Assembly: GCA_019323195.1 (NCBI GenBank)
Contig: JAHWHQ010000036.1
Location: forward strand, 2,952-66,951
Length of the DNA: 64,000 nucleotides
DNA from: Candidatus Woesearchaeota archaeon
GTDB taxonomy: Archaea; Nanobdellota; Nanobdellia; Woesearchaeales; JACPBV01
Direction of reading: 5' to 3'
Under the pieces are notes generated by a model. It saw nothing but the letters and a program-made list of their open reading frames with translations, was not told the DNA's origin and searched no databases. Shown piece by piece: positions 1,710-62,943 of this stretch. The translations under genes were made by a program, and so were the position numbers. The stretch's first letter is position 1. Each line of letters starts with the position of its first letter.

Positions 1710-2034
1710 ATTGAATATAAACTGCCCAGGGCAAAGTAATTAATGATTGTTTTTAAATATTCTGATTTATATTTTTTGTTTATAGAATCGATACCTTAAT
1801 TTCCAAACGAAATGCTCTGAAACCTAGCAACGTTTTTCCTAAAATTGCGAAAGAAGGGCAAAAAGAATGATTGAAAGAATAAAATATGAAGGCAGGGGTT
1901 TCTGATGGCCTTATAGAAGCCAAAAACAATTATATTTAAATACTTTTCTGATTTATAAAGATTTATAAGTAAAACAATAAAAGGGGCTTTTTTGAGCTCC
2001 AGATTTAAAAAAAGAGGTCATAGGGGGTGTTTTT

Positions 2035-8692: not shown

Positions 8693-11600
8693 TCAGCCAA
8701 ACCACTGCCCCAAAGCTATCTGCTTTTCCTTTTCTTTGCCAAAAATACCTTCAACCCTTCTTTTTGTAAGTTCCAGGCTTAGCTTCAGATAGGAAGGAAG
8801 GTCGTATTTGGCTGCAAGGCTTATTGCAGGCTCAAGATACTTTATTATAGAGCCTTCTGAGATAGTAAATATTATCTTCCCCCCGCATTTTGTGCACTTG
8901 CCCACTAATGGCGGCCGGCGGTATTTCTGGTTGCAGTTAACGCACCTGAAGACCTGCTGGGAAAATTTCCTTAGGTTTCCTTTTATGTCGCGTATGAAAT
9001 GCTTCTCTATGACCAGCCTTGCAACATCTCCTGTATCTACGGCCCTTATCTTCTCTGCAAGGTCCATCTGGCCCTTAAGCTTTTCTTCCATCGAGGGAAG
9101 GGTCTTATATGCAGAACACCTCTTGCCGTCATTAAGGTCGCCCAAGTCGTGGGTAAACCAGAAATCTTCATACTGCCCTTCCTTGTTAAGCCGCTTGCCT
9201 AACTGATCTATCTCAACATCCCATGGCTGCTTGTACTGCAAACAGGCCTCATAGAACTCCAAGGGGTACCTTTTTGCCACATCAAGGTCAAAAACCATAT
9301 CATCGACCTCTGCAGGAATCAGGGCAGAGGTCAAGACAAGGGGGGCATCCTGGGTTGCGCCACGGTTGTTGGGGAGGAACTGCCTTGAGAAATTCAGCAG
9401 GATGTCCATTATAAGGGTCACTGATGCCTCATCGCCATCGCAGTCACGCCTAGTAGCAGCGTGAAAGATAGGATGGGCGTAAAAGCCAAGGGTTTTTGAA
9501 AAGCCTATTATCCTGCCAGTTGTTGCTGCTGAGGTATGGGGCGCTAAAGCGATCACCAGCTTGCCTGCAAGATCGGCAGGTGATCTAAGGCTGTAGAACG
9601 GCTTAAGATGGTAGAATTCAACCAAAAGGTCGTCAATAAAGTTTGCCAGCCGGAACAGGATCTGGTCAGCGCCTTCTTCTGGGGACTCGTCACAGGCAGG
9701 CAGTATCAGGTCCTGGGGGCGCAATTCGAGAACCTGGCCAGGATCAACCAGCTCTTTCCCGTATATGTCTTTCACGTACCCCAGCACTTTCAGCTTCTCT
9801 ATGCTTGTCTGTATCTCTTTTGGCTTGAAGTGGGTTATTGCAAGCTGGGTCATATCATACCTTGTTGTTCCGTCTTTATTGACATATATGTCGTGCTTCG
9901 CCCTTAGGATGCCTTTTGCAAGGTGCTCTGGGATATGGTCTTTATTGGATGTTCCCCTAACGCCCTTGATCAAATCAGGCATGGTTTTTTCACCCATATT
10001 GCCCATGATTCTCTTGAAAATGCTGTTTATGTCGATGCTTTTTTTCATGTATGGCCTTGCTGTCCCGTGCTTGCATTCCCCATTTTCCAGAACCCCGCAA
10101 TCCTTGCAGAAATAAAGTTTCTTTGCCTTTTTGCCGCAGCTTTCACAAACGCTGAAAACTGTTTCTTTGCTACAGCCTGGACAGCGGTAAAGGGGAAATT
10201 CTGCGGTTATCTTTCCTGATTCCATGGCTGTCTGGAAACACCTTAGCTTGCCCCCTTCATCCCCGACAGGGAAAAGCACGTGCGGAGAGCCTGTAAGTTT
10301 TCTCATCTTGGCTTTTTCAGGGCGCCCCATCCTGGCGCCTATGAAATAACCTGACTTATCTCTAAGCTTTATGGGGGAAATAAGGTTTATTATCTCAACG
10401 GGCTTCTTTTCCATATTTTTTCTTACAGTTTCCATTAGCCCGGAATGTCCTTTGCCTGCTGATAAGGAGAACATCTCTGAGAGAACAAGAGCATCCTCTT
10501 TTTCTATCAAGACGTATTCGTTGCTTATGAACCTGTGGGGAAGGCCAATGACCTCAAGGGTTCTTTTCTTTTCCTTGTCAAGGGGAAGGACTATCTTATG
10601 AATCTTACCTTCCTGCTCGACTACGCTGGACCTGCTGAGCCATTCAAGGAGACCTAAAAGGTCTTTTGATGATACAAGGTTCCAGTGATAGGTATAATAG
10701 GGGTAAAGAGGGATGCCCAATTTCTTTGAAAGCTGTACAGAAGCGAGGGCAGTCAGCCTCTGGCCCAAAGGGTCTCTAAGGAGGGTATCAAGAGCGTCTG
10801 GAGAGATGCCGGTAATCTCTGAAAGCTTGTCAAGGTCAAGATTTCCAAAGGTGCTTACTGTGGCTTTCTCAAGCTCCTGCACCCACCACTCCTCACAATA
10901 CCCTGGAGGAAGAAGAGGGTGGGCCCTGTTGAAGAAATCGCCATAGCTGAAAAGTATGTCTCCCATGAAAAGAATCTCTTTTATCTGGCCTGCTAATTTC
11001 TTTGCCTGTTTTGTGGTCTCGAGCCTTAGAACGTCCCCGTTAGTTAATTTAACAACCGGCCCTTCGATAGTATCGCAGCAGGACATTGCAGCTGCTTTTC
11101 CAGGGCGCTCTACTTTCAGCTGCGTACCTATGGCTATGTAGCCGTTTAAAGCGTACGTCAATGCCGGATGGATAGAGGCAGAAGAATAACCGCTGGTCCT
11201 TGCCCGGCCGTACCTCAGGCGGAAGCCGCCTTCCCTTAACGGATGCGTCAAAACAGGGCGGCCGGCAACGAGGTCAGAGATATAGGTATAGATGGGGGCT
11301 ACCTTGCCCGTATCCTCTGTCGTGCTTTTGGATTTGACCTTTTTCTGGAGCTTGATGAAATCACCAAGGAAAAGCCATTCGTCAAGCCCGAAGTCCTTTC
11401 CCCACTTGCTGACCTGCTTCCACAGCTTGGGGGCTTTCTGGGCGATCCCCTCCCCAATAACCAGGCAGACACCGGACCTAATCCTATTCGTCTCTATCCT
11501 TTCAAGATCCTTATACCTGGAGACCTCTATCTCCTCTGAAGGATCGCCGGAGACCTGGATTGGGAGGTTCTTTGCCAAAAAGGATATCTCTTCCCTGCTA

Positions 11601-12232
11601 GGGAGGTACTGTAGATTAGTAACACGTTCATGATAATCATAGAGCTCTGTCACCGTCCTGTTGATCTCGTCTTCTGTCGGGTCGTAAGGAAGGTAACCCA
11701 TCTGCTTCCTGACATAGTCTGAGACGATGGTGGAGACGGCAGCAGCTGTCCCCCCTGCAGACCTTATAGGTCCGGAGTACATCAGACAGAAGTATTCCCT
11801 GCCGTCCTTCCTCTTATTCAGCCTGAGCTCGACAAAACCCTCTATGGGGGAAGCGACTATGCCTAAGGTAAGGTAGGCGATACCTACCCTTATCCCTGTC
11901 TCCATGGCCTTTAGCTTAGTGCTGAACCTGCAGAGCTTTTCCTGCGATACCTCAAGTGATATAGTAAGGGCGACCCTCCAGTCAAGGTCTCCAAATTTTT
12001 TCTCCAGCTCCTTTATCCTTTGAGAAAGGCCGGAGTTCTCTATCTCAGGGACTATGGTGGAGATAAGGCCCTCTACCCTCTCCGCCATGTTCTTGGCCAG
12101 AGGAACAGCAGCATCGTCCTCAGGGTCATAGCCGAGGCTTCTTGCCTTTTTTGCAGCTTCATAAGCCGCCTTTACCTGCTGCTCTATCTGCCCAAGGTAT
12201 TTTTTCATTTCCTTGCTTGCTGTCGGCTCCAT
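8693..12232 (-). CDS. polC: DNA polymerase II (family D) large catalytic subunit DP2
   Basis: 1179 aa. It has the characteristic Zn-finger clusters (CPGCSKETVFSVCESCGKK...CKDCG; C-terminal CVNCNQKYRRPPLVGKCTKCGG) and conserved DP2 blocks. No intein is present. Confidence 0.93.
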   Translation of the reverse strand: MEPTASKEMKKYLGQIEQQVKAAYEAAKKARSLGYDPEDDAAVPLAKNMAERVEGLISTIVPEIENSGLSQRIKELEKKFGDLDWRVALTISLEVSQEKLCRFSTKLKAMETGIRVGIAYLTLGIVASPIEGFVELRLNKRKDGREYFCLMYSGPIRSAGGTAAAVSTIVSDYVRKQMGYLPYDPTEDEINRTVTELYDYHERVTNLQYLPSREEISFLAKNLPIQVSGDPSEEIEVSRYKDLERIETNRIRSGVCLVIGEGIAQKAPKLWKQVSKWGKDFGLDEWLFLGDFIKLQKKVKSKSTTEDTGKVAPIYTYISDLVAGRPVLTHPLREGGFRLRYGRARTSGYSSASIHPALTYALNGYIAIGTQLKVERPGKAAAMSCCDTIEGPVVKLTNGDVLRLETTKQAKKLAGQIKEILFMGDILFSYGDFFNRAHPLLPPGYCEEWWVQELEKATVSTFGNLDLDKLSEITGISPDALDTLLRDPLGQRLTALASVQLSKKLGIPLYPYYTYHWNLVSSKDLLGLLEWLSRSSVVEQEGKIHKIVLPLDKEKKRTLEVIGLPHRFISNEYVLIEKEDALVLSEMFSLSAGKGHSGLMETVRKNMEKKPVEIINLISPIKLRDKSGYFIGARMGRPEKAKMRKLTGSPHVLFPVGDEGGKLRCFQTAMESGKITAEFPLYRCPGCSKETVFSVCESCGKKAKKLYFCKDCGVLENGECKHGTARPYMKKSIDINSIFKRIMGNMGEKTMPDLIKGVRGTSNKDHIPEHLAKGILRAKHDIYVNKDGTTRYDMTQLAITHFKPKEIQTSIEKLKVLGYVKDIYGKELVDPGQVLELRPQDLILPACDESPEEGADQILFRLANFIDDLLVEFYHLKPFYSLRSPADLAGKLVIALAPHTSAATTGRIIGFSKTLGFYAHPIFHAATRRDCDGDEASVTLIMDILLNFSRQFLPNNRGATQDAPLVLTSALIPAEVDDMVFDLDVAKRYPLEFYEACLQYKQPWDVEIDQLGKRLNKEGQYEDFWFTHDLGDLNDGKRCSAYKTLPSMEEKLKGQMDLAEKIRAVDTGDVARLVIEKHFIRDIKGNLRKFSQQVFRCVNCNQKYRRPPLVGKCTKCGGKIIFTISEGSIIKYLEPAISLAAKYDLPSYLKLSLELTKRRVEGIFGKEKEKQIALGQWFG

Positions 12233-12233
12233 T

Positions 12234-13808
12234 TTAGATGAATTTCAAGATTTTTATTTCCCTGGTCTTAAGGTTTACAAGAGGTATCCTGCCTGGTTCC
12301 GGGTTATGGCCCACCTTTTCCTGGAAGGATGTCTTTGACTGCCAGCACGAGCCGCTTATCAAAGTTATATTCCTATAGTTTGCAGCTATAGACTTATGGA
12401 TGTGGCCGGTGATAAAGAAATCCGGCTCTCTGGCTATTACTAGGGGGTCCTGCTGCGCGTCAGGGGCGTATAATGTGGAGGTGTGGGTTGGAGCGAGATG
12501 CCTTCTCCTAAGAAGAAACTTCATGATGCGGTCTGCGCGGTTATAGCCGCCGTTGTTCCTTATCGAATCTACGTTCGCAACAAAATAATCGAAAGAGTAG
12601 CCATGGTAAAGCAGCACATCAAAACCGGAGAACTCTTCAGAGGAGTGAATATTGACCAGCGCAGGGTTGGAGACAGAGGTTATATTAGGGAGCCTGTAGA
12701 TGGGCTCTGCAAAATCCCTGTAAAGGGGAGGCTGGGGCTCGGCTATGCGCATGGCATCGTGGTTTCCAGGGCAGATTATAAGGTGTATTCTTGAAGGTAT
12801 CTGCTTCAGCAGACCTGCGCAGGCTTCATACTGGGAGTAAATATCTTTTATGTCGAGTTCCTTTTCCTGCTCAGGGTAGATGCCGCAGCCGTCAACAAGG
12901 TCGCCAACGATGAATATGTACTCAACTTTTGACGCTATTTCCTTCTGTTTTTCGTTGCCGGCCTGCCCGTTTATCCATTTAAGGAACCTGTTGAAGGCTT
13001 CGGGAAGAAAATTATTGGAGCCTACATGCAGGTCTGAAAGGAATAAGGCATAAGCTTCAGACGGGCTTTTTTTAAGCTTCCTGGCGGTGACTTCGGGCCA
13101 GAACAGCTTGTTGGCGAAAACTATGTTGGTGCCGTTAACCCCGCTGATGCCAAGGATCTCGTCAAGGACTATTGACCTGGCCTCTTCGAAGGTGTCCGGC
13201 TTGTTCTTGTTTACCAGGACGTTTATGGAGCCGGTCTGGTCCTCTAACGTCAGGATAAGGTTCTTGTTTTTTGTCAGCTGCTTGTCCGATACCATTCCAA
13301 TCAAGGAGACAGAATCACGGTCTTTCTTGTTTTTTATCCGGTTAATGGTGGTAATGTTCTTAAGGTCGGGCCTTTGACGAAGCAGCTTTTCTATGGCCTT
13401 ATACCGCATATTAAAATACCGGACAAAATCCTGGATGTCCCTTTTTTTTGGGTTCTCGTCATAGGAGTGCACTACTTTAACCTTTTCATCGGTGATTTTT
13501 GCCTTCTTGGTGTAAAGGTATTTTATGAATTTAGGGTAAATCTTGCTTTCTTTCCCTTTTTCCATCTGTGCTTTTGATCTCTCTAGGTCAGGCCAGTTGA
13601 GGTCCAGTACAGAAAGGCTTTGAAGGGCATCATTAATGTCGTTGTTGAGGAAAAGGAAATTCTGAAGGTTTATTTTGCGGGTTATAAGGGAGTAGATCTC
13701 TTCTGCGTGCTTCTGGCTTATATTATCAAGGATGTCTGAGCTTAGGAGGATATCTTTACCAAGAAAAAAATCTACTACCTGCTTTTTTTGGATTGCTTCC
13801 TGCTTCAT
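12234..13808 (-). CDS. polB: DNA polymerase II (family D) small subunit DP1, calcineurin-like phosphoesterase
   Basis: 524 aa. N-terminal DP1 region followed by an OB region. Metallophosphoesterase motifs are LFLSDLHVGS, IFIVGDLVDG, GNHD and GHIH. Confidence 0.9.
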   Translation of the reverse strand: MKQEAIQKKQVVDFFLGKDILLSSDILDNISQKHAEEIYSLITRKINLQNFLFLNNDINDALQSLSVLDLNWPDLERSKAQMEKGKESKIYPKFIKYLYTKKAKITDEKVKVVHSYDENPKKRDIQDFVRYFNMRYKAIEKLLRQRPDLKNITTINRIKNKKDRDSVSLIGMVSDKQLTKNKNLILTLEDQTGSINVLVNKNKPDTFEEARSIVLDEILGISGVNGTNIVFANKLFWPEVTARKLKKSPSEAYALFLSDLHVGSNNFLPEAFNRFLKWINGQAGNEKQKEIASKVEYIFIVGDLVDGCGIYPEQEKELDIKDIYSQYEACAGLLKQIPSRIHLIICPGNHDAMRIAEPQPPLYRDFAEPIYRLPNITSVSNPALVNIHSSEEFSGFDVLLYHGYSFDYFVANVDSIRNNGGYNRADRIMKFLLRRRHLAPTHTSTLYAPDAQQDPLVIAREPDFFITGHIHKSIAANYRNITLISGSCWQSKTSFQEKVGHNPEPGRIPLVNLKTREIKILKFI

Positions 13809-13838: not shown

Positions 13839-15050
13839 CTAAGATACGGCTAACCCTTCCTCTAAGATCTTTTTTGTTTTTCCTATAAGCGCTTCGGGGA
13901 TCAAAAGTGAGATCTCCCTTGTCCTTCCGTGGCGGCCCTTGGAGATTACCTTGGCGTTTATTATGCCAAGCATGTCCAGTTCAGCTATAACATCAGAGAT
14001 CCTTCTCTGCGTTAACGGCCTGAGGCCTACTCTGGAGGAAACCTGCTTATAGATTTCATAAATATCCCCTGTGAAGATGTTTTCTTTCCTTTTCTGGCTT
14101 AATGAAAGGATAGAGTAAAGTGTTGCCTGGGACTGCTTGGGCTGGTGGGTTATGGCGTCCAGGACGCTGTCTTTCTCTATTTTTTCCTCAGCATGGTCTA
14201 TGTGGGAGATGTCTACCTTTTTTGAACTGTTACGTTCGGCAATCTCGGCTGCAACCCTTAAAAGCTCTAAAGCGCGCCTTGCATCACCGTGCTCCCTGGC
14301 GGCGTAAGCTGCGCATTTTTCAATAACGCCTTCACTGATAGAGTCCTTTTTGAAGGCTTCTGCCGCCCTTTGCTTTAAGATGTCCTGGATCTGTATTGCG
14401 TTGTAAGGAGGGAAAACAAGCTCTTCTTCAGACAGTGAAGAGCGAACCCTTGGGTCTATGTTATCAACAAAGATGAGGTCGTTGGAGATGCCAATAAGAG
14501 AGACCTGTGCATTTTTAAGGTCCTCGTTGATCCTTACAAGGTTGTAAAGTATCTCGTCCCCTGTTTTTTTCACAAGCTGGTCTATCTCGTCAAGGATAAG
14601 AAGAATTAGCTGTTTTTTGGAATCTATAACGTTAAAGAAGGATTTGTAGACTTCGTCTGTAGGCAGGCCGGTAGGAGCTATCTCATGGCCAAATTCACGC
14701 GTCAATTGGGCAATGAGGCGGTATTCTGTGTCTGCCATCTTCTTGAGCTTGCAGTTAAGGTAGACTGTTTTTAACGGGATGCCTTTTTGTTTGGATTTGT
14801 CCAAGAGGTTGTCGGCTATGTGCTTGATGGTAAGGGTTTTGCCAGAACCTGTCTTTCCGTAAATGAACAGGTTAGATGGCTTTTCAAGTTTCAGGCATGG
14901 CGCTAAGATGTTTGCTACCTGCTTTATTTCTGAATCGCGATGTGAGATGGCTTCTGGCGTATAGGAGCTTTGCAGGGCTTTCTTATCTAGAAAAAGGCTT
15001 TCTTTACCTAAAAAGTCCTCAAAAAAGTTGGATAACGCCTCTTTTTCCAT
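13839..15050 (-). CDS. cdc6: Orc1/Cdc6 replication initiator
   Basis: 403 aa. Walker A is IYGKTGSGKT, Walker B is LILDEID, and a C-terminal winged helix follows. It is oriented away from the oriC-like region. Confidence 0.93.
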   Translation of the reverse strand: MEKEALSNFFEDFLGKESLFLDKKALQSSYTPEAISHRDSEIKQVANILAPCLKLEKPSNLFIYGKTGSGKTLTIKHIADNLLDKSKQKGIPLKTVYLNCKLKKMADTEYRLIAQLTREFGHEIAPTGLPTDEVYKSFFNVIDSKKQLILLILDEIDQLVKKTGDEILYNLVRINEDLKNAQVSLIGISNDLIFVDNIDPRVRSSLSEEELVFPPYNAIQIQDILKQRAAEAFKKDSISEGVIEKCAAYAAREHGDARRALELLRVAAEIAERNSSKKVDISHIDHAEEKIEKDSVLDAITHQPKQSQATLYSILSLSQKRKENIFTGDIYEIYKQVSSRVGLRPLTQRRISDVIAELDMLGIINAKVISKGRHGRTREISLLIPEALIGKTKKILEEGLAVS

Positions 15051-15574
15051 ATAGTTTCCATATGAAATGGAGGTATTTAAAGTTTTAGGTGTTATACGGG
15101 AGTAGTGGATTCTTAATTGTATGTAAAGTATGTTCTATGTCGTAGGAGGGGTGTAATAATAGTTGGGTATTTTGGGGTAGATAAGCTCGTTTTACTGTTT
15201 AGAACACACCCCTTGATTTCTTATGGAAAAATGGATTTAAAGATTTTGGCTTTTTTTTGTTTTTTGTTTTTTTATTCTTTTCTATATAGAAAATAATAAT
15301 ATAATAATAAATATAATAAAGATATAAATAAAGAATAAAGAATAAAAATGATAAAGGAGATAATGAGGAATAATAAATAAAGAATAAAAATGATAAAGGA
15401 GATAATGAGGAATAATAAATAAAGAATAAAAATGATAAAGGAGATAATGAGGAATAATAACTAAAAGATAAAGATAATCCGGAAGTAAATATAACTTCCA
15501 TAGGAAAAAGGGGGGTAGCCCTTGCCTAGTAGAAAGAAATATTTATTAAGGCTGGATGTGGGCATTTACTTAAA
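15051..15574. other. Putative replication origin (oriC). ORB-like boxes: 15056-15075 in + orientation, 15205-15229 in inverted orientation, 15495-15520 in + orientation. An AT-rich DUE-like stretch lies at about 15235-15490.
   Basis: The boxes read tTTCCAtatGAAAtGGAGGt (15056-15075), the reverse complement tTCCAtaaGAAAtcaaGGGGtgtg (15205-15229) and cTTCCAtagGAAAaaGGGGGGtagcc (15495-15520). All fit the archaeal ORB pattern TTCCAnnnGAAA followed by a G-string. Two of them in opposite orientation bracket a region of more than 85% A+T. The position next to orc1/cdc6 is also typical. Confidence 0.65.
15334..15459. repeat. Perfect 42-bp tandem direct repeat x3 (aataaagaataaaaatgataaaggagataatgaggaataata) inside the AT-rich origin region
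   Basis: Read directly. Copies are at 15334-15375, 15376-15417 and 15418-15459, with a partial copy upstream. The repeat generates the spurious in-frame ORF 15199..15501 on the minus strand. Confidence 0.9.
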
Positions 15575-16387
15575 TTGCCGGAATTTACCAATGGGACAAG
15601 GAATATGCCTCAAAAAAACCTAAAGGATTATGTTAAGGATAAGCTGGGTAAGGGGTATAGTACTTTTACTATTAAGAAGGCCCTGCTTAAATGGGGGTAT
15701 AAGGAAGAAAATGTTGATATGGTCTTTTCTTCTTTGCTGCCTTTAGGGAAGCAAAAGGCTGCTGAGGAACATCATAAGGGGCAGTTTAGCTTATTTGTCA
15801 GACCTGGCAGTTTTTTTTCCGAACGATCTGATCTGGGGATCCATAAGGCTGTTAGGTATTTTCTGCATGCTTTTTTGATTTTCTTTGCCATTCAGTTTCT
15901 TATAACGCTTTTAGCAGGGATTTTTGCAAGGGGGGAAGGATATTTTATCCCTGCTGCGCTTTTGGCTAATGTTTTGACAAGCCTGCTTTTTTTGCTGTCA
16001 ATACTTATCTTTTCTTCTTTATTGGCAGGGTTATGCTTTTTTTCATCTAAATATATATTTCAGGAAAGGATGGATTTTCTTCTGATTCTTACTATCCTGC
16101 TCTTTGCTTTGGTGCCTTATGTACTGATAAGCTCTTTAAGGAGCCTTGAGGTATATGGCATCATTTCACTTTTAGGCGTCTCGATCGGGGTCTTGGACAT
16201 AAACATATTCTTTTTGTGGTCATTGTTTTTGTTTTCTTTAGGGATGTCTAAGAGTTTGGGGTTGAGCGTTAAGAAAGGGGTGCTTTTTGTTCTTGTTCCT
16301 TTTGCTTTTCTTATGGCTGCCCTGGCCTTTGCTTCGTACGGGGCTTTGAGGGCAAGGTTTTTGTGGCTGGTTTTTGAGAGGTTTTGA
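15575..16387 (+). CDS. Membrane protein: about 60-aa soluble N-terminal domain plus about 6 TM helices
   Basis: 270 aa. The hydrophobic helices begin at HAFLIFFAIQFLITLLAGIF... There is no recognisable catalytic motif. A T-rich stretch follows the gene. Confidence 0.5.
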   Translation: MPEFTNGTRNMPQKNLKDYVKDKLGKGYSTFTIKKALLKWGYKEENVDMVFSSLLPLGKQKAAEEHHKGQFSLFVRPGSFFSERSDLGIHKAVRYFLHAFLIFFAIQFLITLLAGIFARGEGYFIPAALLANVLTSLLFLLSILIFSSLLAGLCFFSSKYIFQERMDFLLILTILLFALVPYVLISSLRSLEVYGIISLLGVSIGVLDINIFFLWSLFLFSLGMSKSLGLSVKKGVLFVLVPFAFLMAALAFASYGALRARFLWLVFERF

Positions 16388-16590: not shown

Positions 16591-16725
16591 ATGACAAGGG
16601 TAAACGTAGAGATCGACAATGAGCTGCACAAGAAAGCTAAGCTGAACGCTCTTCTTAAGAACCAGACTTTAATCGAGTATATTCATGAGGCTCTGAGGGA
16701 AAAGGTAAAGAAAGATGGTAAATAA
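16591..16725 (+). CDS. Ribbon-helix-helix (CopG/Arc/VapB-like) small DNA-binding protein, 44 aa
   Basis: MTRVNVEIDNELHKKAKLNALLKNQTLIEYIHEALREKVKKDGK. The layout is a beta-strand (RVNVEID), helix, helix, which is typical of RHH. It is not in the ORF track because it is under 60 aa. Its last 11 nt overlap the ATG of the giant gene at 16715. Confidence 0.6.
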   Translation: MTRVNVEIDNELHKKAKLNALLKNQTLIEYIHEALREKVKKDGK

Positions 16726-19700
16726 GAAAATATTTGTCTTTTTGGTCATGGCTGTTTTTTTGGCTAGTCTGGTCAGGTCCATAGTTCTTTTACCGGAAAA
16801 CCCATTATATGGTTGTAAATTAGATGTACAATATTCAGATGGGGGCCAAATAGACACTAACCCCACCCAGCCATGGAGCGGAGGGGTCAGGTTTGATGGC
16901 AGCAGCAAAAGGATATCCTTTGTAGGCTATGTAAACGGGGACGATGCGATTGATTTGAAGGTGACGTGTTCCGACCCAGGATTACAATCATGCATTTTGA
17001 GAGCAAGAGACGCAGACTCGGTGATATGGAAGTCTGGCAGGTTTGATGGAACCCCTGTAAGGATATCTTTTACAGGCCCGGTGGGCAGCGGTGATGCTAT
17101 TGAGGTTAAGATATACTGCCCCTCTCCTGGGGTGAGAAACAATTGTAAGCTATATGGCAGATACTCAGATTTAGGTCAAATAGATTCTAAGTCGTGGGGG
17201 GATGGGGTTAAGTTCGATAACTCACCATTGGAGATATCGTTTACAGGGGTGGTTAGTAATGATGATGATATAGACCTGAAGATCGAATGCGACTGCCCAT
17301 GCCCTTTTGGCTTGTGTTGTGATAACTGCCAGTTCAGGGATGCGGGAGAGGTATGCGGGAATGTTCCAAGTGATTGTTTGAGTAAGACAGGGGCTGACTA
17401 TTGTTGCGATAAACCAGAGGTATGTGATGGGGCAACGCCTGGCTGCCCTCCAGATAACGATGTCCAAGACAGCAACTATGTTTGCAGGAACCCAAAGGCA
17501 TGTACCGAGCCGGAATGCTGCGACTTACCTGAAAAATGTGACGGCTTAACTAAATACTGCCCTACAGAAGATAAAGTTAAGGATGAAGGGGTACTTTGCA
17601 AGACAGATACAAGGGCATGCTATGATGATGGGTATTGTGACGGGGAATTCCCTGTTTGCTTGCCAAACCCTGCCCCCAAGGATACTCCATGCACTACCGA
17701 CGATGGCAAATCAGGCTATTGCGACCTTGATGGGAACTGTAATGCCGGATGCAGCTCTGATCAGACCTCTCTTTCAAGAAAATCTTCAATGACCGGCTCT
17801 TCAGACACAAATGATATCCCGCAAGATCTCAACGATCAGGCGTGCTGTGACAGTGCAGAGATGTGCGTATATGCCGGAGCGTGTTATCTTGGCACTTCAG
17901 ATAGGTCATATTATCTAAATGCCCTGGGCATTAATGATGTTATCTGCAGATCGAATACCTGGCATGACTGCGATTACAAGGAGGACTATTGTACTGGCTG
18001 GGGTGTGTGCAGTATAGGTATTGGGCGCTGGATAAAAAACGGGGAGGAACAAACAATAGGGGAGTATAATACAGCCTATCCCAATCCAACAGAGAAGTGC
18101 TGCGGTGATGATGCCGGGGAGAAATACGTATCAAGAAATGTTGTAGGTTCAGACTCTGACATTCCGGCAGATGCAGATGACGTGGCCTGTTGTTCCAGCA
18201 GCACTGATTGCGTCTATGACGGCAAGTGCTATGATGCTGGCTCTACAGACCCTGGCAGTTACTGCAAGGGACAAAAGTGGAATGGAGGGGATGATTTACC
18301 AGAGGCATGCCCTCTCTTGGGCGGAACATGGGATGCAGCCATGGCGGCGGGTAGCCAATGCTGCGGCGATGATGAAGGAGAGACGCCAAAATCCCGGGAG
18401 GGGGATTATGCTGACCTTAATGATGAAGCCTGCTGCGGTAGCGATGAATGCGTCCTTAGTGGGGGATGTAAGCCGTATCTTGCTACCTATGACCTGAGCA
18501 GCTACAGCGTTTTAGACGATTCTGCTGACCTAGAGGTGTGCATGTCATCCGGGTGGAAGGATCCAGATTTTAGCCAGGAAGCGTGCCAGGCCGTAAATAA
18601 CAAAAGAACAGATGGAGGGGGAAACTTAATCCCTACATTATGGATGGCGGGGGGGGAGTGCGGATATGGCACTGGGCAATGTGATGATGCCCCTAATTCC
18701 CCAAATAAGATGAATTTCTGCTGCGGTGACGACCCTTGGGAGCTTTTTAACCCTGCCAGGAGCGGAACTAAGTGTTTTATCCACCCGGATTACGGGTGTT
18801 CCCATGATGGTGTGGACTATATATATAAGCCGATGGTAAATGGGAAGTATACTGATGATGACTGCTGTAAAGGCACATGCCCTGAAGGGGGATGTTGCGA
18901 TAAGAACTGCAATTATCTGCCTGATACCCATATATGCAGGGAAGCGGCGTCAGAATGTGATGTGGCTGAAAAATGCACAGGAACGAGCCCAGACTGCCCA
19001 GACAACGCCTTTGAACCAATCGGTACAGAACCTCCTTGCGGGAAGTGCGACGGGGCAGGGAACTGCGGGGAATGCCTTCCTACCGAGTTTAATAACCACC
19101 GAGAATCAATAAAACCTGCTATACCTATAGATGATAAATATCCTTATTTCCCAACACTTACTACAGACAAGGCATGCTGCTCAGAAATAGATGATTGCGT
19201 GTATGACGGCAAGTGCTATGCCAGCAACAGCGGCAGGCCAGAGGGCAGCCCCCCTGTTGATATTATGGGCGCTGTCTGTTATATCCCTGAATCACAAAAG
19301 TGCCCCACCTGCATAAGGGGCGGAACATGGTATGACTGCGACAATGACCAGAGCTTTTGCACGAATAATGAGTGGGGATGTTCCCTGAACTGGGTGGCCA
19401 GCGGGGAGGCTGGTGTCGGGGAGTACGGCGCTGAGGGAACGATGGAATGCTGCGGGGATGATTTTGATACTGACGGCAACCCCCAGGAGTTCTTTAAGGT
19501 AATCAAGCTGGGCAGCGATTCTACACTTTCGGTTTCAGGAACAGACAAGGCATGCTGCAATTCAGGCAATGACTGCGTTGAGAATTATGAATGCTATGAT
19601 CCAGGAAGGCTGCATAAGGGTGGGAAGGATTACTGCAATGCAACAGGAGGATGGGAGGGAGGGGATAATTCAGAGGCTGCATGCACGGCAATAACAAAAG

Positions 19701-22700
19701 CTGCAGGAAGGTGGGATATAGACTTTGAATCTTCCGTTGCTGCAACAGGACCGTGCTGCGGTGATGATGATGCTACAGAGAGGTTTGTTACCTGTGACAT
19801 TGATGATTTTTGCAGCGATACAGCAAAAACAGCGTGCTGCGACAATACGCATGACTGCGTATTTGACGGGGTATGCCATCCTGCCTATGATGCCAGCAAT
19901 CCAAAGCCGGAATCTTTCCTTGATATGAAGAATGGCCTTCCTCTATGGGACACATCTTCTGACATGGAGGTCTGCATCGATGATCCGGTGGCAGGGAGGC
20001 TGGGTTGGAAAGACCCTGATGATTATGATGGTGCCTGCTCTGCCGTGAACAACAGGCCGAACCCTACTAGGTGGATGTCCGGGGCAGATACAAGCTGCGG
20101 CCTTGAGAGGGAAGGGAGGGTATGCGATGATTCTCCCAGCGGGCTAAACACGGCAGATTTCTGCTGCGGCGATGATGAGGGGGAGGTTTTTAGGGAAGAG
20201 GAAGGTTTTGAGAATGCGTGCCTTGTCAAGGGCGGATGCTATTTTGAGGGACAACACTTCCTGGACGGGGAATATTCAGGGGATAATTACTGCCAGAACG
20301 GTGAGGTCATACAGAGAACGAAGCTTATTGCCCTACAGCTGTTGGACATAGCAAACAAGGAAAGCCCTTCGCATTATACATTATTCTGCGACAGCTATGA
20401 GAATGCCCTTAACTATTATAGCTACGACCTTAATCCGCCGTATTCAACTTCAGCCTTTCCTTATACAGATAAAATCAATAATGTATGCCTCTTAAGGCTA
20501 AAAGACCAGGTAATATTCGGGACATCCTTAGATGACCCTATAGACGAAGGGGCTTACCCTTTCATTAACGTACTAAAGGATATAAAAAGCAATCTTGACT
20601 GCAGCAGCGTGCAAGGTGTAGGGGACTGGCAGTTCCATAGCTGCAATACTCTTAAGGTATGGTATAATGATAAGATACAGAGCGTAATATACAGCAATAA
20701 GGACCTAAACCTTGGGAACCTTGATTTTGATGAGAAGTTCTTATTGTTCCTGAAGAACCCGTTCCAGAACATATTTGATTCAATTATCAGCTTATTTGGG
20801 GAGTCGAAGGTTGATCCCGAGGATTATGGGTTCCTGAAAGACAGCAAGAAGTTTTCAAGGATATACCTTGACAGGACAGGGGTCAAGTCCATAAAAGGTG
20901 TTATAGAGGATGATGCAGAAGCAGGAGAGTACCTTTCTATAGCCTATAACTGCTATACTGATGATATATGCGAGACAGTAGAGGCTGCGCAGGAGAGATT
21001 TGGGGCCAAAGGGATATTTGGAGGGGATGAGATCAGCTGCAGTTATAAGCCGGATATCTCCACTTATTATGTTGCAAGCAGATCACCTACCCGGCTGGAC
21101 ATGTGGCCGCAGCTGACAGCAGGCTTGAGGACGAAGAATGTAAAGCTTCCTACAGGGCTTACAATAACCCCGCGCATAAAGGCGCCGGAAAAGGCTATAA
21201 AGGGCTATCCTGTAGAGTTCCAGGCAGATGTTGAGGGGGCCTGCATCTCACCCCCTTATACCTATTCCTGGACTTTTGGGGATGCAGGAACAGGCTCAGG
21301 AGAGGCGCCAACACATGCCTATACTGCAACAGGCAGCTATATTGTGGGCTTAACAGTTGAGGAACAGAAAGATGCTTCAAACCATGGAAGCGGCACCCAT
21401 AGCCTGGAGGTTATTGACATTAAAGATTGTGAAATAAGGGATAAATCAGTTGGATGTGATGCTGGAGCCCTTGAGCAGTGCATCATGTCATTATCCGCAG
21501 GGGCAGATGCTACAGCAGACGAGGCATGCGACAGCGTCTCGCCATACGAGCTTTGCTGCCAGAATATATTCCAGGTGGATACTGCCCCGGGGGGGTGCGG
21601 GGAGGCGGGGCTTATCTCATTGTCACAGACCTTTAACGGCAGGGCAGACGGGTATAACCAGGGGACGTTTGCAAACGACATCTGCATAAGGTCGGCTGTG
21701 GAGGGGATGAAGGCCAGCTGCAGGCCTGTACTTAAAGGAGATACTTTCAATAACCTTGGTGGCGAGGTGTGCGTCCTTTCATTATCTGCTTTTAAGGGGG
21801 GCGTAATCTCGGGATGCGACCCCAATGCTGAAGTGAATATCTACTGCAGGATTATCGATGAGGCTGTAAATGTTGAAAACTGTGAGAACGGCGAGAATGA
21901 TGATGGAAGCGGCCTTGATGACTGCGAGAACGCGGCCTACTGCCCGACAGGGACATTCTGCAATGCGGAGCATACGCAAAGATGCACAAAAGACGCATCT
22001 GACAATCGCCTGTGTGAATGCATCGATAATGATGGTGACGGCTATGGCGCTTGCGCTGGTGCGGATTGTAATGATCCTGCTACATGTGACTGCAATGATG
22101 GTGATCCCTCAATACATCCAGGTGCAGCTGAAACCTGCGATAATGTAGATGAGGACTGTGACAAGCTAGTTGATGAGGGTGTAACAAAACAAGAGGCATG
22201 CAGTGTCGGCTGTCCTGGAAACAAATGCACTTTTACATGCTCAGCAGGGGCGTGGACTGAAGACCTTTCTAACGCTTATAATGGGGCTACTCTAGAGGTG
22301 TGTGATGCTTTGGATAATGACTGCGACGGGGAGATTAATGAGGGTGTAACAAGAATGGTTTTCTGCGGCGACTATGGAGTCTGCAAACTCCAAAGCCATA
22401 CTCAAACATGCAACATAGCTGGTGAATGGGTTCCTGCTACCTGTGATACAACTACAATCCCTAATTATAACACTAATGATGATTGTAGTGATACCTTAGA
22501 TAATGACTGCGATAATTCTGTAAATGAGGATGGGTTGGAGACATTCTATAAAGATGGCGATTCAGACGGGTATGGGCTGCAGACAGATTTACAGGAGGCA
22601 TGTGCAGGTTCGCTGCCTGCTGGCTATGTCGCTTCTAAACCCGACGGTTATGACTGTAATGATGGCGATTGGAGGATTAATCCTGGGAAGACCGAGACCT

Positions 22701-26912: not shown

Positions 26913-27053
26913 GTGAAAGAGAGGATTACGATTACTATTGATAAGGAACTTCTTAATTGGTTAGATAAGAAAATAGATGAAAAGGTTTTTGCAAACAGGT
27001 CTCACGGCCTAGAGTTTCTTATAAAACGGAGGATGGAGGGGGAGAATGAATAA
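26913..27053 (+). CDS. Ribbon-helix-helix (CopG-family) small DNA-binding protein, about 46 aa, GTG start
   Basis: VKERITITIDKELLNWLDKKIDEKVFANRSHGLEFLIKRRMEGENE. It shows the CopG-type signature (RITITIDxELxxxLD...NRSxxIxxLI). The stop TAA at 27051-27053 overlaps the ATG of the giant gene at 27046 (sequence gagAATGAATAAgg). The start codon is uncertain and could be GTG at 26913. Confidence 0.55.
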   Translation: MKERITITIDKELLNWLDKKIDEKVFANRSHGLEFLIKRRMEGENE

Positions 27054-30000
27054 GGCAGCCAGATACAGCCTTGTTCTTGTTGTTATAGTATTGATGGCTA
27101 TGCTGAGCTTTAAGCTTGCTTTGGCAGATGAGGGATGCTGTTATGCTAAGGCAACCCATCAATGCACTTATTCCATTAAAGGAACCCCCCAGGAGACAAC
27201 AGAAACTGCATGTTTAGTGAGCTCTAATAATATCTGGGATGATGACCCTACATGCGCAGGCATACCTGAATGCGAGATGGGATGCTGCTGCCAATCAAAC
27301 CAGCCGCTTTATACGATAAGGGGGGAGTGCGATGTAAGGAAGCTGGAATGGGTCAAGACAAATGAGGAAGGGTGTAATTATCATTGCATAAGCGGAATAC
27401 CAGCTTGCAAGCCAAACTGCGAGGTCAATGGTGGCGAGTGTGTAGGGGTAGGAGGCAAGCTTGCTGCTGCCGGGAAGAGATACTGCGGGGCAGACGGCAG
27501 CTTGTATGACAACTGGGCAGATTGCCTGCAATGCATGGAGGAAGCCTCTCTCCCTGAATGCGGGCTAGATGCCGCGATAACAGTAAAATGCACCTATGAT
27601 GATATTATATATCCTCCTGAGAATGGGGGTTATCTATGCTTAAATGGAGTATATGTTCCTGGCGATAAAAGTGCCTGTGTTGGTGATTGTTCTACAGGCG
27701 GAACGATGATAACGGCAGACTGCTTTTGCGGAGGTGTCAAGAAGTCAGACGGCTATTGCTGCGTGGATGGGATGCATTATCCTACACAGGCAGGATGGAA
27801 AGCGTGCAATGATGCTGCAGGAAGCACCTGTGAAGGGGTTGGCTTTGTGTGCTCGGATGCCTGCGATACAGCCGAAGACAGAAATGCTGCTTTTGATTAT
27901 GGCAGCTGTACAGATGCAACAAAATGCTGCCCCACTGACCTTCCTTACTGCTGCGAGAAAGAGGCTGTCTCTTATGCATACTGCTGCGACCAGTATGAGG
28001 AATGCACCGGAACTGACCTATATAATGAGCCCGAATCTGACCCTTATAGGTATATCTATAAGTCCTGCAATGCAGGTGACCTGTCAAAAAAGCCATGCAC
28101 TGCAGAATGCAAGAGGTTAGAATGCTCGCAGGGAAACTGGAGGATAAACAGCGGGGCTAATACACATCCAACACTTACACACTGTTACTGTGACGGAAGC
28201 CCAAGGGACATATCCTTTGACGGGGGATATTGCTGCGCAGACGGCGGAGATGGAAAATATCAGACCACTCCGTGCATCATTGAGACAGGAGACGTATTAG
28301 GCTATGTTTATAATCTGCTTGATAATGCCCGGATAGCAGATGCAGATATAAATGCCTATAGGTTCGGGACGAAAATAGGCTATACTGTCACCAACAATAA
28401 TGGGGAATATACACTTTCAAACATGCCTTATGGCGGGTATAAGATATATGCTTCAAAAGATGGCTTTAAGGCAAATAGTATAGATGTTGACCTTATTGCC
28501 CCCCAGCTGCAAAACAAGAACATAGGCTTAATACCTTATACTGAGGGACCGTGCGATTCCTGCAGCCCGCCAGCACCCGTCATCACCGCAGAGCCTGTAA
28601 GGGGGAAGGAGGGAATAGAGCTTTCATGGAACATACCTGAGGATACTTCTTTTTGCAGTTCTTCTTTGACTGACAGCTTTGTTATAGAAAAGAAAGAGGC
28701 TGCAAAGAAATTGGCAGAGATGAGGACTGACCAGGCCATTTTAATTGATAATGATGTTTCATGGGATACCACTTATACCTATTCAACAACTGCGCATTAT
28801 ACGACCAATGCCATAAGCACATCTCAAGATTCCTTTCCAGTATCCCCTGGAAGCGCATTTTGCGAGGGCATATACAGCGATGATATGGAGTTCTGCCTTT
28901 CAGACGGCTTTATACAGGCAGACACCAATAATTACAGGTACAGGTGCGACCATAACAATAATCTTGTTAATGTCTATCTCAGTTCACCATCTTCGCAGAT
29001 GGGGCCGAGCTGCACTGATGAGGGCAAGGATGTTTGCGTCGGGCCCGATACAACAGGGGAGACAGAATGCATAGAACAGCCAGACTGCAGGGAGATGGGG
29101 GATTTTAAGCCGTTCGGGCTGTATTATGATGAAGACAGCTGCCTTGACAACGGGGACAGCTGGTGCTATTATGATTCCTCCACTACAATAATAGACAAGT
29201 GCGACAACTGCAGGGCAAAGAGCTGCTATGATTATAAGAGCAAGGAGGCATGCGAAGCTGATAACTGCAGGGCAGGGGGGCTTTATATTGACAGGGAGAC
29301 AGGGGCCAACAATGGATGCAAATGGATACATACATGGGAGGAGTATGGGAAGGGGATATGCTATGACCCTGACTTCAACGGCCAGGAATGCGGCTTATGC
29401 AGCAATGAGGGAGACCTTTTCTTCAATACCGGCTGTACACAAACAATATGCTCGGCTTTAGGAAAATGCTATTCCAGCTCAGATGGATGCATGGAATGCG
29501 CGGAAGGGACAGCATGTGAAGATTATGAGAATGAAGAGGCGTGTGTTGGCATAGTCGGTAATGAACAGGAGATTGATTTTGTGAACAATGCTGGCTGCGG
29601 CATTAATAATATACCTCTTGAAATACAGCCCAGCAATGATGCCTGCGGACTTGGGGTGTGCAAGTGGGACAGCACAATGAAAAGCTGTTACAAGGATGCG
29701 GATGATGATCTTGTTGAAGACTGCGGTGAAGGAGAGGTAATCTGCATGAAGGATTCAAAACCTCCTGTGACAAGCCCGGAGATGAGCATACCTAACATTG
29801 GGCTTTCAGGACATCATATACAGTTTATTGTGCCATATCAGGGGTGGTCTTATGCAGAAAAATTCTATTATTGTGTGGATGCATCCAATACGTGCTGCCC
29901 TACTTCTGAGAAAAACCTTGACTGTGTTGTTAATACAGGGAAGTGTACGGTTATAGGTGGGGTAAACCCTGTGGAAGACCTGGCAGATTCAGAATATACA

Positions 30001-50256: not shown

Positions 50257-50295
50257 ATTGTATTGAAAAAACTTTTATAACTAAAGGTAATTTTC

Positions 50296-52471: not shown

Positions 52472-52510
52472 TTTTATATAACAATTTTTTTACTTATTAT
52501 TTAAAGTTAA

Positions 52511-53791: not shown

Positions 53792-53827
53792 TTGGCTAAT
53801 ATTATTTTTTTACTTATTTAAATTTTT

Positions 53828-59535: not shown

Positions 59536-59638
59536 ATTATAGATGATGATAACGGGGTTATAAAAGTTTTTTTATTTTGTAGGGTATTCTGCTTAGGGCT
59601 GTCTGAACATCAAATTCTGGCGGCTAGAATTTCTTCTA

Positions 59639-61165: not shown

Positions 61166-61269
61166 GCAGATTTGTACTACGTATAGTTAATATATAATTA
61201 TTTCTGTTATACCCCTGTTTCCTTTTCTTAAGCAAAAAACATAAATACTAAGATGAAATACCTATCCTT

Positions 61270-61656: not shown

Positions 61657-61721
61657 ATAAATTGGATAATAATGTTTTGAAGATAAAATAGACATCTTTT
61701 AGTAAGTTTTTTATATTTGGT

Positions 61722-62798: not shown

Positions 62799-62865
62799 AA
62801 AAAGCCAAAATAACAAAATCTACTAAGTGGGATTATCTGGACCTATAATTATCAAAAATAGATCT

Positions 62866-62940: not shown

Positions 62941-62943
62941 ATA

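What the first reader, a model, noticed from the sequence alone, without database searches (positions are those of the whole stretch)
15051..15574. A candidate chromosomal replication origin lies next to orc1/cdc6 and the PolD operon
Three ORB-like boxes match TTCCAnnnGAAA followed by a G-string: tTTCCAtatGAAAtGGAGGt (15056-15075), tTCCAtaaGAAAtcaaGGGGtgtg on the opposite strand (15205-15229), and cTTCCAtagGAAAaaGGGGGG (15495-15520). The boxes at 15205-15229 and 15495-15520 are inverted relative to each other and flank about 255 bp of more than 85% A+T (15235-15490). That stretch contains a perfect 42-bp x3 tandem repeat. Inverted ORBs around an AT-rich unwinding element, directly upstream of orc1/cdc6, is the canonical archaeal oriC layout. 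The PolD DP1/DP2 genes lie just beyond cdc6.
Basis: partly seen in the sequence, partly recalled or inferred. Interest (0 to 1): 0.6.

Follow-up and report, generated by a model that had tools for sequence, protein, structure and literature searches.

The report
Woesearchaeal replication origin beside cdc6
The stretch upstream of the orc1/cdc6 gene of this uncultivated Woesearchaeota archaeon has the textbook layout of an archaeal chromosome replication origin, and it also carries a conserved central palindrome that I could not find described in the papers I searched.

Summary
Three ORB boxes (15054-15079 +, 15205-15230 -, 15494-15519 +) score 23-32 bits against a clade matrix. Nothing else in the 64 kb exceeds 11 bits. 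The two inverted boxes flank the most AT-rich 250 bp of the window (83% A+T, not >85%). That stretch contains a perfect 42-bp x3 repeat. The adjacent genes are orc1/cdc6 (an Orc1-1 type), PolD DP1 and DP2.

In 80 related species the cdc6-DP1-DP2 order is kept wherever the contig extends far enough. ORBs are about 125-fold enriched in the 1.5 kb upstream of cdc6. The layout recurs in most loci that have enough upstream sequence: distal ORB, AT-rich stretch, proximal ORB, then a weak ORB over the cdc6 TATA/start.

The oriC interpretation is therefore supported as a new member of a known kind. In-vivo firing and GC skew could not be tested.

A palindrome, TTWCWATATWGWAA (window 15279-15292), sits where the AT-rich stretch switches from T-rich to A-rich. 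It has 41 exact matches upstream of cdc6 and none in 742 kb elsewhere. It also occurs between ORB-like repeats next to distant Orc1 genes in Desulfobacterota genomes.

The 42-bp repeat is a species-specific expansion, not a conserved element.

The parts
13839..15050 (-). orc1/cdc6 initiator gene (403 aa), Orc1-1 type
   Evidence: Pfam Cdc6_C, Cdc6_lid and AAA_22. It is 100% identical to an NCBI 'ORC1-type DNA replication protein [Candidatus Woesearchaeota archaeon]'. The closest solved structures are S. solfataricus Orc1-1 (2QBY_A, E 1.6e-99) and A. pernix ORC1 (2V1U, E 1.5e-92). Wing/HTH arginines and the ISM TGL motif are kept.
12234..13808 (-). PolD small subunit DP1
   Evidence: Pfam DNA_pol_E_B, Metallophos and OB-fold. 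It follows cdc6 in 79 of the 80 related loci; the one exception ends just after cdc6.
8693..12232 (-). PolD large subunit DP2
   Evidence: Pfam PolC_DP2 N-terminal, central and catalytic domains, E 1e-83 to 1e-118. Synteny is kept wherever the contig reaches that far.
15054..15079 (+). Promoter-proximal ORB (box 1; core TTCCATATGAAA 15056-15067, weak G-string GGAGG). It lies between the cdc6 TATA box and the ATG.
   Evidence: Matrix score 23.3 bits. An ORB in this orientation about 28 nt upstream of the cdc6 start recurs in about half of the related loci and abuts a TATA-like A/T run. Autoregulation is inferred, not shown.
15075..15082 (-). Putative cdc6 TATA box (TTTAAATA on the cdc6 strand), 25-32 nt upstream of the ATG. 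This implies a leaderless or near-leaderless mRNA.
   Evidence: Read directly from the sequence. The same GGT-ATTTATA/TTTAAA junction follows the proximal ORB in relatives. This is an inference from the usual archaeal promoter geometry.
15205..15230 (-). cdc6-side ORB (box 2): TTCCATAAGAAATCAAGGGGTGTG. The dyad end faces the AT-rich stretch and the G-string faces outward.
   Evidence: Matrix score 32.3 bits, the best in the window. It corresponds to the '+' ORB at -75 to -180 seen in most related loci.
15231..15493 (.). AT-rich duplex-unwinding element (DUE) between the inverted ORBs: T-rich arm 15235-15278, central palindrome, A-rich arm 15293-15490.
   Evidence: A+T is 83.2%, and this is the most AT-rich 250 bp of the window. 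There is no C for 178 nt on the + strand, 15283-15460. In relatives the AT maximum (0.72-0.97, mostly above 0.85) lies between the inverted ORBs.
15279..15292 (.). Central palindrome TTTCTATATAGAAA at the switch from T-rich to A-rich. The window's extended palindrome is ATTCTTTTCTATATAGAAAATAAT (15274-15297); the clade consensus is TTaT-TTTCWATATWGAAA-AtAA.
   Evidence: There are 41 exact matches to TTWCWATATWGWAA in 79 kb upstream of cdc6 in 83 loci, and none in 742 kb elsewhere. Observed 33 against 0.075 in shuffles. It is always between the inverted ORBs. It is also present in a distant, bacterial Orc1 family.
15334..15460 (+). Perfect 42-bp x 3.02 tandem repeat inside the A-rich arm (TRF: 15327-15472, 3.5 copies).
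   Evidence: It is absent from the closest relatives L081-L083, whose Cdc6 is 81-85% identical. Tandem repeats with unrelated units occur in the upstream region of 32/55 relatives against 4/45 control regions. It is therefore a recent slippage expansion, not a conserved motif.
15494..15519 (+). Distal ORB (box 3): TTCCATAGGAAAAAGGGGGGT. The dyad end faces the AT-rich stretch and the G-string faces outward.
   Evidence: Matrix score 25.3 bits. It corresponds to the distal '-' ORB at roughly -200 to -1150 in related loci.

Best explanation
This is the chromosomal replication origin (oriC1 type) of a Woesearchaeota archaeon.

Shown: three ORB sites of the canonical form (TTCC-A-NNN-GAAA, a short spacer, then a G-string) cluster in the 524-bp gap upstream of an Orc1-1-type initiator gene. 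Two of them are inverted, with their dyad ends facing inward, and they bracket a 263-bp AT-rich stretch. The arrangement recurs in most of the 80 related species that have enough upstream sequence.

Inferred from work on Sulfolobus, Aeropyrum and Pyrococcus: one Orc1 monomer binds each ORB with fixed polarity. Its winged helix sits on the dyad and its AAA+ ISM sits toward the G-string. The two inward-facing Orc1 molecules, bound to ATP, load MCM onto the AT-rich DNA between them. That DNA melts and bidirectional replication starts.

The third ORB lies between the cdc6 TATA box and the start codon. It most likely lets Orc1 repress its own gene (inference).

The conserved palindrome TTTCTATATAGAAA sits at the point where the AT-rich stretch changes from T-rich to A-rich. 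My best guess is that a two-fold-symmetric protein binds it. This could be a dimeric accessory factor playing the part of Sulfolobus UBP at the ucm motif, or Orc1 itself. The site would mark where the two MCM hexamers meet or where melting begins.

The 42-bp repeat merely lengthens one arm of the AT-rich stretch.
For: - **Motif clustering and chance:**
- **Gene identities:**
- **Orc1-1 orthology and kept DNA-binding residues:**
- **Synteny:** cdc6-DP1-DP2 is found in all 80 species loci wherever the contig allows.
- **ORB enrichment upstream of cdc6:** 69-fold with the plain pattern and about 125-fold with the matrix.
- **Consensus:** the clade consensus tTTCCAnAnGAAAtaAaGGgGT agrees with the Pyrococcus ORB oligos, whose reverse complement reads TTCCAGTGGAAATGAAACTCTGGGGGG, and with the invariant 'TTCC'/'GAA' core stated in PMC1904270.
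- **AT maximum between inverted ORBs in relatives:**
- **Footprinting in close relatives:** L081-L083 keep the ORBs, the TATA box and the palindrome while the rest of the spacer is unalignable.
- **Gene orientation:** the first upstream gene points away from the origin in 38/46 loci. Of all upstream genes, 124 point away and 86 point toward it (p = 0.01).
- **Palindrome:**, and in a second Orc1 family.
- **Precedent for an essential central motif:** the ucm/UBP system of Sulfolobus oriC1 (PMC12141716).
Against: - There is no in-vivo evidence: no marker-frequency data, no Orc1 binding data and no initiation-point mapping.
- GC skew gives no support. In the window the + strand has G>C at third codon positions on both sides of 15.3 kb. 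Pooled across relatives, genes on the presumed leading strand do not have higher coding-strand GC3 skew (0.004 against 0.10, p = 0.11). The window is too short and the lineage may have weak skew.
- A canonical oriC need not be used. T. kodakarensis replicates without Cdc6 and oriC (PMC5663688; title and abstract seen).
- For the palindrome, the hairpin or cruciform energy is not exceptional (z-scores mostly -0.7 to +1.5), so a purely structural role is not supported. No binding protein is identified.
- 22 of 58 loci with enough upstream sequence lack an exact match to the palindrome.
Confidence: 0.85

Rival explanations
1. The boxes are only operator sites through which Orc1/Cdc6, or another regulator, controls the cdc6-polD operon. 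Replication starts elsewhere or without a fixed origin.
For: Box 1 overlaps the core promoter. A proximal ORB at about -28 is conserved. GC skew shows no switch here. T. kodakarensis shows that a canonical oriC can be dispensable (PMC5663688).
Against: Regulation alone does not need two further high-scoring inverted ORBs placed 180 and 470 bp upstream. It also does not need an 83-97% AT spacer or a conserved central palindrome kept across many of the related species. Orc1 is single-copy in the phylum according to the Nanobdellota preprint, so no other initiator/origin pair is evident. Autoregulation and origin function coexist at characterised origins.
Confidence: 0.08
2. It is the origin of an integrated mobile element or plasmid that carries its own Orc1, not the chromosomal origin.
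For: Orc1-plus-ORB modules do travel on mobile elements. A related module sits in island-like contexts in Desulfobacterota genomes, next to IS3, defence genes, ParA, a relaxase and many small ORFs.
Against: Here the initiator is fused in an operon-like array with the essential replicative polymerase PolD. That array is present in every one of the 80 related species loci where the contig allows it. Orc1 is a single-copy core gene in the phylum. No integrase, transposase or tRNA gene is nearby.
Confidence: 0.02
3. The region is low-complexity AT-rich intergenic DNA, and the box matches are chance or a by-product of the tandem repeat.
For: AT-rich spacers and slippage repeats are common. The 18-nt palindrome pattern alone also hits many unrelated AT-rich metagenome contigs.
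Against: Shuffles give 0.00 expected for the extended box pattern against 2 observed. Matrix scores are 23-32 bits here against at most 10.7 elsewhere in the window. The boxes lie outside the tandem repeat. Enrichment in relatives is 69- to 125-fold.
Confidence: 0.01
4. The 100-codon ORF 15199-15501(-) across the AT-rich stretch is a real gene, and the repeats are coding.
For: An ATG-initiated ORF of 100 aa exists.
Against: Its translation is a low-complexity repeat (…SSLSPLSFLFFIYY… x3). It has no Pfam hit and no significant tblastn match in 83 related loci. It overlaps two ORBs.
Confidence: 0.01

Closest known systems
Thermococcales oriC (Pyrococcus abyssi/furiosus), upstream of cdc6/orc1 with dp1 next to it (PMC1904270)
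   Same: The gene order is origin, cdc6, then PolD DP1 (followed here by DP2). Long ORBs form an inverted repeat. The ORB has the form TTCC…GAA core plus a G-run. A single Orc1/Cdc6 is present.
   Different: There is no swarm of 13-bp mini-ORBs and no second ORB cluster inside dp1; the matrix finds nothing above 11 bits elsewhere in the window. The spacer between core and G-string is shorter (2-4 nt against about 10). No central palindrome is mentioned in the Thermococcales text I read. I could not inspect a Pyrococcus sequence.
Sulfolobus oriC1 (ORB3-DUE-ORB2 with central ucm bound by UBP; PMC12141716)
   Same: The initiator is of the Orc1-1 type. Inverted ORBs bind with defined polarity around an AT-rich stretch next to orc1-1. 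A short conserved sequence motif lies near the middle of that stretch.
   Different: The motif sequence differs: ucm is ATTATACAAAAG, non-palindromic and bound by monomeric UBP, whereas this element is TTTCTATATAGAAA, a perfect palindrome. UBP has more than 300 genomic sites, whereas this palindrome was never seen outside origin regions in 742 kb. The AT-rich stretch is also longer here (263 bp against about 100).
Haloarchaeal oriC1 (ORBs with extended G-string; PMC4010727)
   Same: ORBs with a G-string at their outer end flank an AT-rich stretch next to the conserved orc/cdc6 gene.
   Different: The haloarchaeal G-string is longer and halophile-specific. Haloarchaea have many Orc paralogues and origins, while this lineage has a single one.
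Orc1/Cdc6-linked origin-like regions in Desulfobacterota genomes
   Same: The architecture and polarity are the same: outer ORB, AT-rich DNA, TTWCWATATWGWAA palindrome, AT-rich DNA, inner ORB, TATA-like box, then an ORB at the start codon.
   Different: The initiator is only 32-34% identical. The outer part of the ORB is TTACTCNCACTG or C-rich rather than a G-string. The host is bacterial, the context is island-like and there is no PolD. Function is unknown.

Membership tests
Archaeal oriC of the Orc1-1/ORB (oriC1) type | Lies next to an orc1/cdc6 gene of the Orc1-1 orthologous group | tested here: met
   Pfam Cdc6 domains. Best solved relatives are Sso Orc1-1 (E 1.6e-99) and Ape ORC1 (E 1.5e-92), far better than Orc1-3 (1.4e-39).
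Archaeal oriC of the Orc1-1/ORB (oriC1) type | Two or more ORB repeats with the invariant TTCC…GAA core and a flanking G-rich element | tested here: met
   Three sites score 23-32 bits. The extended pattern has 2 matches against 0.00 expected. The core agrees with the Pyrococcus ORB oligos and the stated 'TTCC'/'GAA' motifs.
Archaeal oriC of the Orc1-1/ORB (oriC1) type | ORBs in inverted orientation flanking an AT-rich unwinding element | tested here: met
   Boxes 2 and 3 are inverted, 267 nt apart. The stretch between them is 83% A+T and is the AT maximum of the window. The same holds in relatives.
Archaeal oriC of the Orc1-1/ORB (oriC1) type | ORB motif concentrated at the origin rather than scattered through the genome | tested here: met
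   2.1 sites/kb upstream of cdc6 against 0.017/kb elsewhere in 80 species. No other site in the window exceeds 11 bits.
Archaeal oriC of the Orc1-1/ORB (oriC1) type | Strand-composition (GC skew / Z-curve) switch at the site | tested here: inconclusive
   No switch appears within the 64-kb window. The pooled GC3 skew difference is not significant. A whole chromosome is not available to the tools.
Archaeal oriC of the Orc1-1/ORB (oriC1) type | Replication initiates there in vivo (marker-frequency peak, 2D gels, initiation-point mapping) and Orc1 binds the ORBs | not testable with these tools
   No read data or biochemistry is available, and the organism is uncultivated.
ucm/UBP accessory system of crenarchaeal origins | The ucm sequence (ATTATACAAAAG in S. 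islandicus) inside the AT-rich stretch | tested here: not met
   The conserved central element here is TTTCTATATAGAAA, a different and palindromic sequence. It is a positional analogue only.
ucm/UBP accessory system of crenarchaeal origins | A UBP homologue encoded in the genome | not tested
   The UBP sequence was not at hand, and only 64 kb of the genome is available.

The most novel reading that the evidence does not exclude
The palindrome TTWCWATATWGWAA at the centre of the AT-rich stretch may be a previously undescribed, sequence-specific core element of Orc1-dependent origins. It is conserved across the Woesearchaeota-like relatives sampled here and is shared with Orc1-linked origin-like regions in Desulfobacterota bacteria. 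Orc1 is the only replication protein I could identify in both sets of loci. The element would therefore most likely be read by Orc1 itself or by a small dimeric partner. It would mark the two-fold axis where melting starts and two helicase rings are placed head to head.
Probability: 0.35. Interest if true: 0.7.

Novelty: new member of a known kind. Interest (0 to 1): 0.45.

Why it matters
No origin of a DPANN archaeon turned up in my literature searches. A recent set of 208 complete Nanobdellota genomes was simply rotated to ORC1, with no origin analysis.

This locus and its relatives give a concrete origin model for the phylum: three ORBs, an AT-rich stretch and a central palindrome. The model can anchor genome rotation, replication-rate estimates from metagenome read depth, and design of replicating vectors.

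The conserved central palindrome recurs next to distant Orc1 genes in bacteria. That makes a specific question testable: what, besides ORBs, defines where an Orc1-type origin opens?

The AT-rich, repeat-prone stretch also explains why many assemblies of these genomes break exactly here.

Tried and rejected
- **GC and AT skew.** I tried the composition profile of the window, per-gene GC3 skew in the window, and pooled leading/lagging comparisons in 46 loci. None showed a usable signal. I do not count this against the origin, because 64 kb is too short and coding-strand effects dominate.
- **Cruciform or hairpin role for the centre of the AT-rich stretch.** DNA folding of 15 centres gave weak energies and mostly non-significant z-scores. 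I rejected this as the main explanation of the palindrome's conservation.
- **TBP/TATA reading of the palindrome.** There is no purine-rich BRE on the upstream side of either strand (sequence), and the element also occurs in bacterial hosts. I consider it unlikely.
- **Metagenome-wide scan with the 18-nt palindrome pattern.** About 90% were chance matches in AT-rich DNA. It is not usable as a specificity test, but it led to the bacterial Orc1 family.
- **Viral-contig scan with the Cdc6 alignment.** It found no relatives.
- **Rfam and tRNA scans of the window.** Both found nothing.
- **ORF 15199-15501.** Rejected as spurious.
- **Literature search for the palindrome string and for DPANN ORBs.** Nothing relevant came up. 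The library holds open-access papers only, so absence is weak evidence.

Full report
**What is in the sequence.**

- The loose pattern TTCCANNNGAAA occurs 4 times in the 64 kb against 1.14 expected, and three of the four lie within 465 bp.
- The stricter pattern with a G-run occurs twice against 0.00 expected.
- Boxes 2 and 3 are inverted relative to each other.
- The DNA between them (15235-15490) is 83.2% A+T, slightly less than the '>85%' claimed. It is still the most AT-rich 250 bp of the window.
- The 42-bp repeat is perfect over 127 bp, 15334-15460, which is 3.02 copies.
- The + strand has no C for 178 nt.

**The genes.** The adjacent gene is an Orc1/Cdc6 (Pfam Cdc6_C, Cdc6_lid and AAA domains). 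It is followed by the PolD small subunit DP1 and large subunit DP2. The Orc1 is identical to an NCBI protein from a Candidatus Woesearchaeota archaeon on a 71.6-kb contig. Its best solved relatives are S. solfataricus Orc1-1 (E 1.6e-99) and A. pernix ORC1 (E 1.5e-92), the two initiators crystallised on ORB DNA. The winged-helix arginines and the ISM 'TGL' turn are invariant in the clade.

**Comparative test.** I fetched 80 species-level loci from GTDB genomes whose Cdc6 is 62-70% identical.

- The order cdc6-DP1-DP2 is present in every locus that extends far enough. The gene on the other side of the gap is not conserved.
- TTCCANNNGAAA occurs at 1.88/kb in the 1 kb upstream of cdc6 and at 0.027/kb elsewhere.
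- The sites share the consensus tTTCCAnAnGAAAtaAaGGgGT. This is the ORB form known from Pyrococcus (TTCCAGTGGAAATGAAACTCTGGGGGG; invariant 'TTCC' and 'GAA'; PMC1904270).
- A matrix built from these sites gives 2.1 sites/kb upstream of cdc6 against 0.017/kb in 708 kb of other DNA. In the window it picks out exactly the three boxes, at 23.3, 32.3 and 25.3 bits, with a next best of 10.7.
- The layout recurs in most loci with enough upstream sequence. A distal ORB and a cdc6-side ORB face each other with their dyad ends inward and G-strings outward. The AT maximum (0.72-0.97, mostly above 0.85) lies between them. A weaker ORB sits about 28 nt upstream of the cdc6 start, abutting a TATA-like run.
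- The closest relatives (Cdc6 81-85% identical; L081-L083) keep the ORBs and the TATA box while the rest of the spacer is unalignable.

The testable refutation criterion, an ORB-like motif common in non-origin DNA, is therefore not met.

**Reading of the parts.**

- Boxes 2 and 3 are the origin-defining inverted pair.
- Box 1 (15056-15073) lies between a TTTAAATA element, 25-32 nt upstream of the ATG, and the start codon. Orc1 bound there would sit on the transcription start. I read it as an autoregulatory site (inference).
- The 42-bp repeat is absent from the closest relatives. Tandem repeats with unrelated units occur in the upstream region of 32 of 55 relatives against 4 of 45 control regions. 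The repeat is therefore a recent slippage expansion of the AT-rich stretch, not a conserved element.
- The 100-codon ORF across the region is a low-complexity artefact.

**A conserved central palindrome.** The T-rich half of the AT-rich stretch changes to an A-rich half at 15285/15286. At that point lies a perfect palindrome, TTTCTATATAGAAA (15279-15292).

- The same element, with the extended consensus TTaT-TTTCWATATWGAAA-AtAA, lies between the inverted ORBs in 42 of 59 relatives with at least 700 bp upstream, allowing one mismatch.
- Exact matches to TTWCWATATWGWAA number 41 in 79 kb upstream of cdc6 and zero in 742 kb of the remaining locus DNA. Shuffling the same AT-rich upstream DNA gives 0.075 matches against 33 observed.
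- The 60 nt to its left carry a T excess of +0.21 per nt and the 60 nt to its right -0.19 (p = 2e-6).
- Its distance to either ORB varies (medians about 125 and 123 bp), and few loci fall below about 45 bp (tenth percentiles 46 and 51 bp).
- Folding gives only a weak 6-11-bp hairpin with non-significant z-scores. Conservation therefore points to sequence-specific recognition rather than to a stable cruciform.

**The same palindrome next to distant Orc1 genes.** A capped metagenome scan with the palindrome pattern mostly returned chance hits in AT-rich DNA. It also returned two loci where the element lies 180-210 bp upstream of an Orc1 only 32-34% identical to the window's.

- Relatives of those proteins, fetched by protein identity, show the same plan: outer ORB-like repeat, AT-rich DNA, palindrome (TTTCTATATAGAAA or the variant TTACAATATTGTAA; one locus had none), AT-rich DNA, inner repeat, TATA-like box, and a repeat at the start codon.
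- The sources name these proteins as bacterial: delta proteobacterium NaphS2, Desulfobacteraceae and Thermodesulfobacteriota. Some sit on contigs of 4.8 and 8.2 Mb.
- The surroundings look like genomic islands: IS3 transposase, defence-type helicases and ATPases, ParA, a relaxase and many small ORFs.
- Orc1 is the only replication protein I identified in both sets of loci. This step is inference.

**Comparison with known systems.** The closest gene-order match is the Thermococcales oriC (origin, cdc6, dp1; PMC1904270). This locus lacks that order's mini-ORB swarm and the second ORB cluster inside dp1.

The closest mechanistic model is Sulfolobus oriC1. There, inverted ORB2 and ORB3 flank an AT-rich stretch, each ORB binds one Orc1-1 with fixed polarity, and a central motif (ucm, ATTATACAAAAG) bound by UBP is essential (PMC12141716). 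The palindrome here is a positional analogue of the ucm, not a member of that system. The sequence differs, it is symmetric, and it was not seen outside origins.

I found no paper describing ORBs of DPANN archaea or this palindrome. A preprint with 208 complete Nanobdellota genomes rotates them to ORC1 but contains no ORB, oriC or skew analysis.

**What remains open.**

- Skew is uninformative. The window's + strand keeps G>C at third codon positions on both sides of the site, and pooled leading/lagging comparisons are not significant.
- Gene orientation gives mild support. The first upstream gene points away from the site in 38 of 46 loci, and 124 upstream genes point away against 86 toward it (p = 0.01).
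- In-vivo use cannot be shown here, and T. kodakarensis proves that a canonical oriC can be dispensable (PMC5663688).

**Verdict.** It is a new member of a well-known kind and, on that basis, of modest surprise. The conserved central palindrome and its recurrence beside bacterial Orc1 genes are the parts worth following up.

Noticed in passing
L001, L002, L005, L009, L011-L013, L019, L022, L028, L029, L034, L042, L053, L062, L064, L066, L072, L075, L076, L078 (upstream ends): 21 of 80 related contigs end within 350 bp upstream of cdc6, inside the AT-rich stretch, and 28 of 80 end within 900 bp. Assemblies of these genomes tend to break at the origin, probably because of the extreme A+T content and the variable tandem repeats.
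   Followed up: partly
L156:3580-3840; L194:4150-4420; L204-L207:2760-3000; L208-L210:3720-4000: A family of Orc1/Cdc6 proteins sits in Desulfobacterota genomes (NaphS2, Desulfobacteraceae; contigs up to 8.2 Mb). Each has an archaeal-style region of ORB, AT-rich DNA, palindrome and ORB upstream, and lies in an island-like context (IS3, defence genes, ParA, relaxase). I found no paper on bacterial Orc1 with these searches.
   Followed up: partly
L083:1-9212: Two divergent cdc6-DP1-DP2 arrays flank one origin-like gap. The two Cdc6 copies are 54% identical, and the left array has an extra NT5C gene. The left array has a very strong strand bias (GC skew -0.55) and the right has none. This could be a real duplication or a chimeric contig.
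   Followed up: partly
window 15133-15157: A degenerate ORB-like element on the + strand (TTCTATGTCGTAGGAGGGGTGT) has a good G-string but a decayed core and scores below 8 bits in the matrix. It may be a decayed fourth ORB.
   Followed up: no
window 16715-25021, 27046-33084, 33085-41892, 41902-44697: A run of very large plus-strand ORFs (2768, 2012, 2935 and 931 aa) lies just beyond the origin. The first has PKD, MopE metal-binding and disintegrin-like repeats, so it is probably a giant surface protein.
   Followed up: no
window 49000-54000 and 59000-64000: Two low-GC blocks (0.29-0.35 against about 0.45 for the neighbouring DNA) cover several genes. They may be acquired gene clusters.
   Followed up: no
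window 1801-1812: This is the only other exact match to TTCCANNNGAAA in the window (TTCCAAACGAAA). It has no G-string, scores 10 bits and is isolated, which is consistent with chance.
   Followed up: yes
window 15575-16387: The gene on the far side of the origin is a Yip1-domain membrane protein whose likely start is the ATG at 15606. A Yip1 match upstream of cdc6 was seen only in L047 and L081, so the origin's conserved partner is the cdc6-PolD side only.
   Followed up: yes
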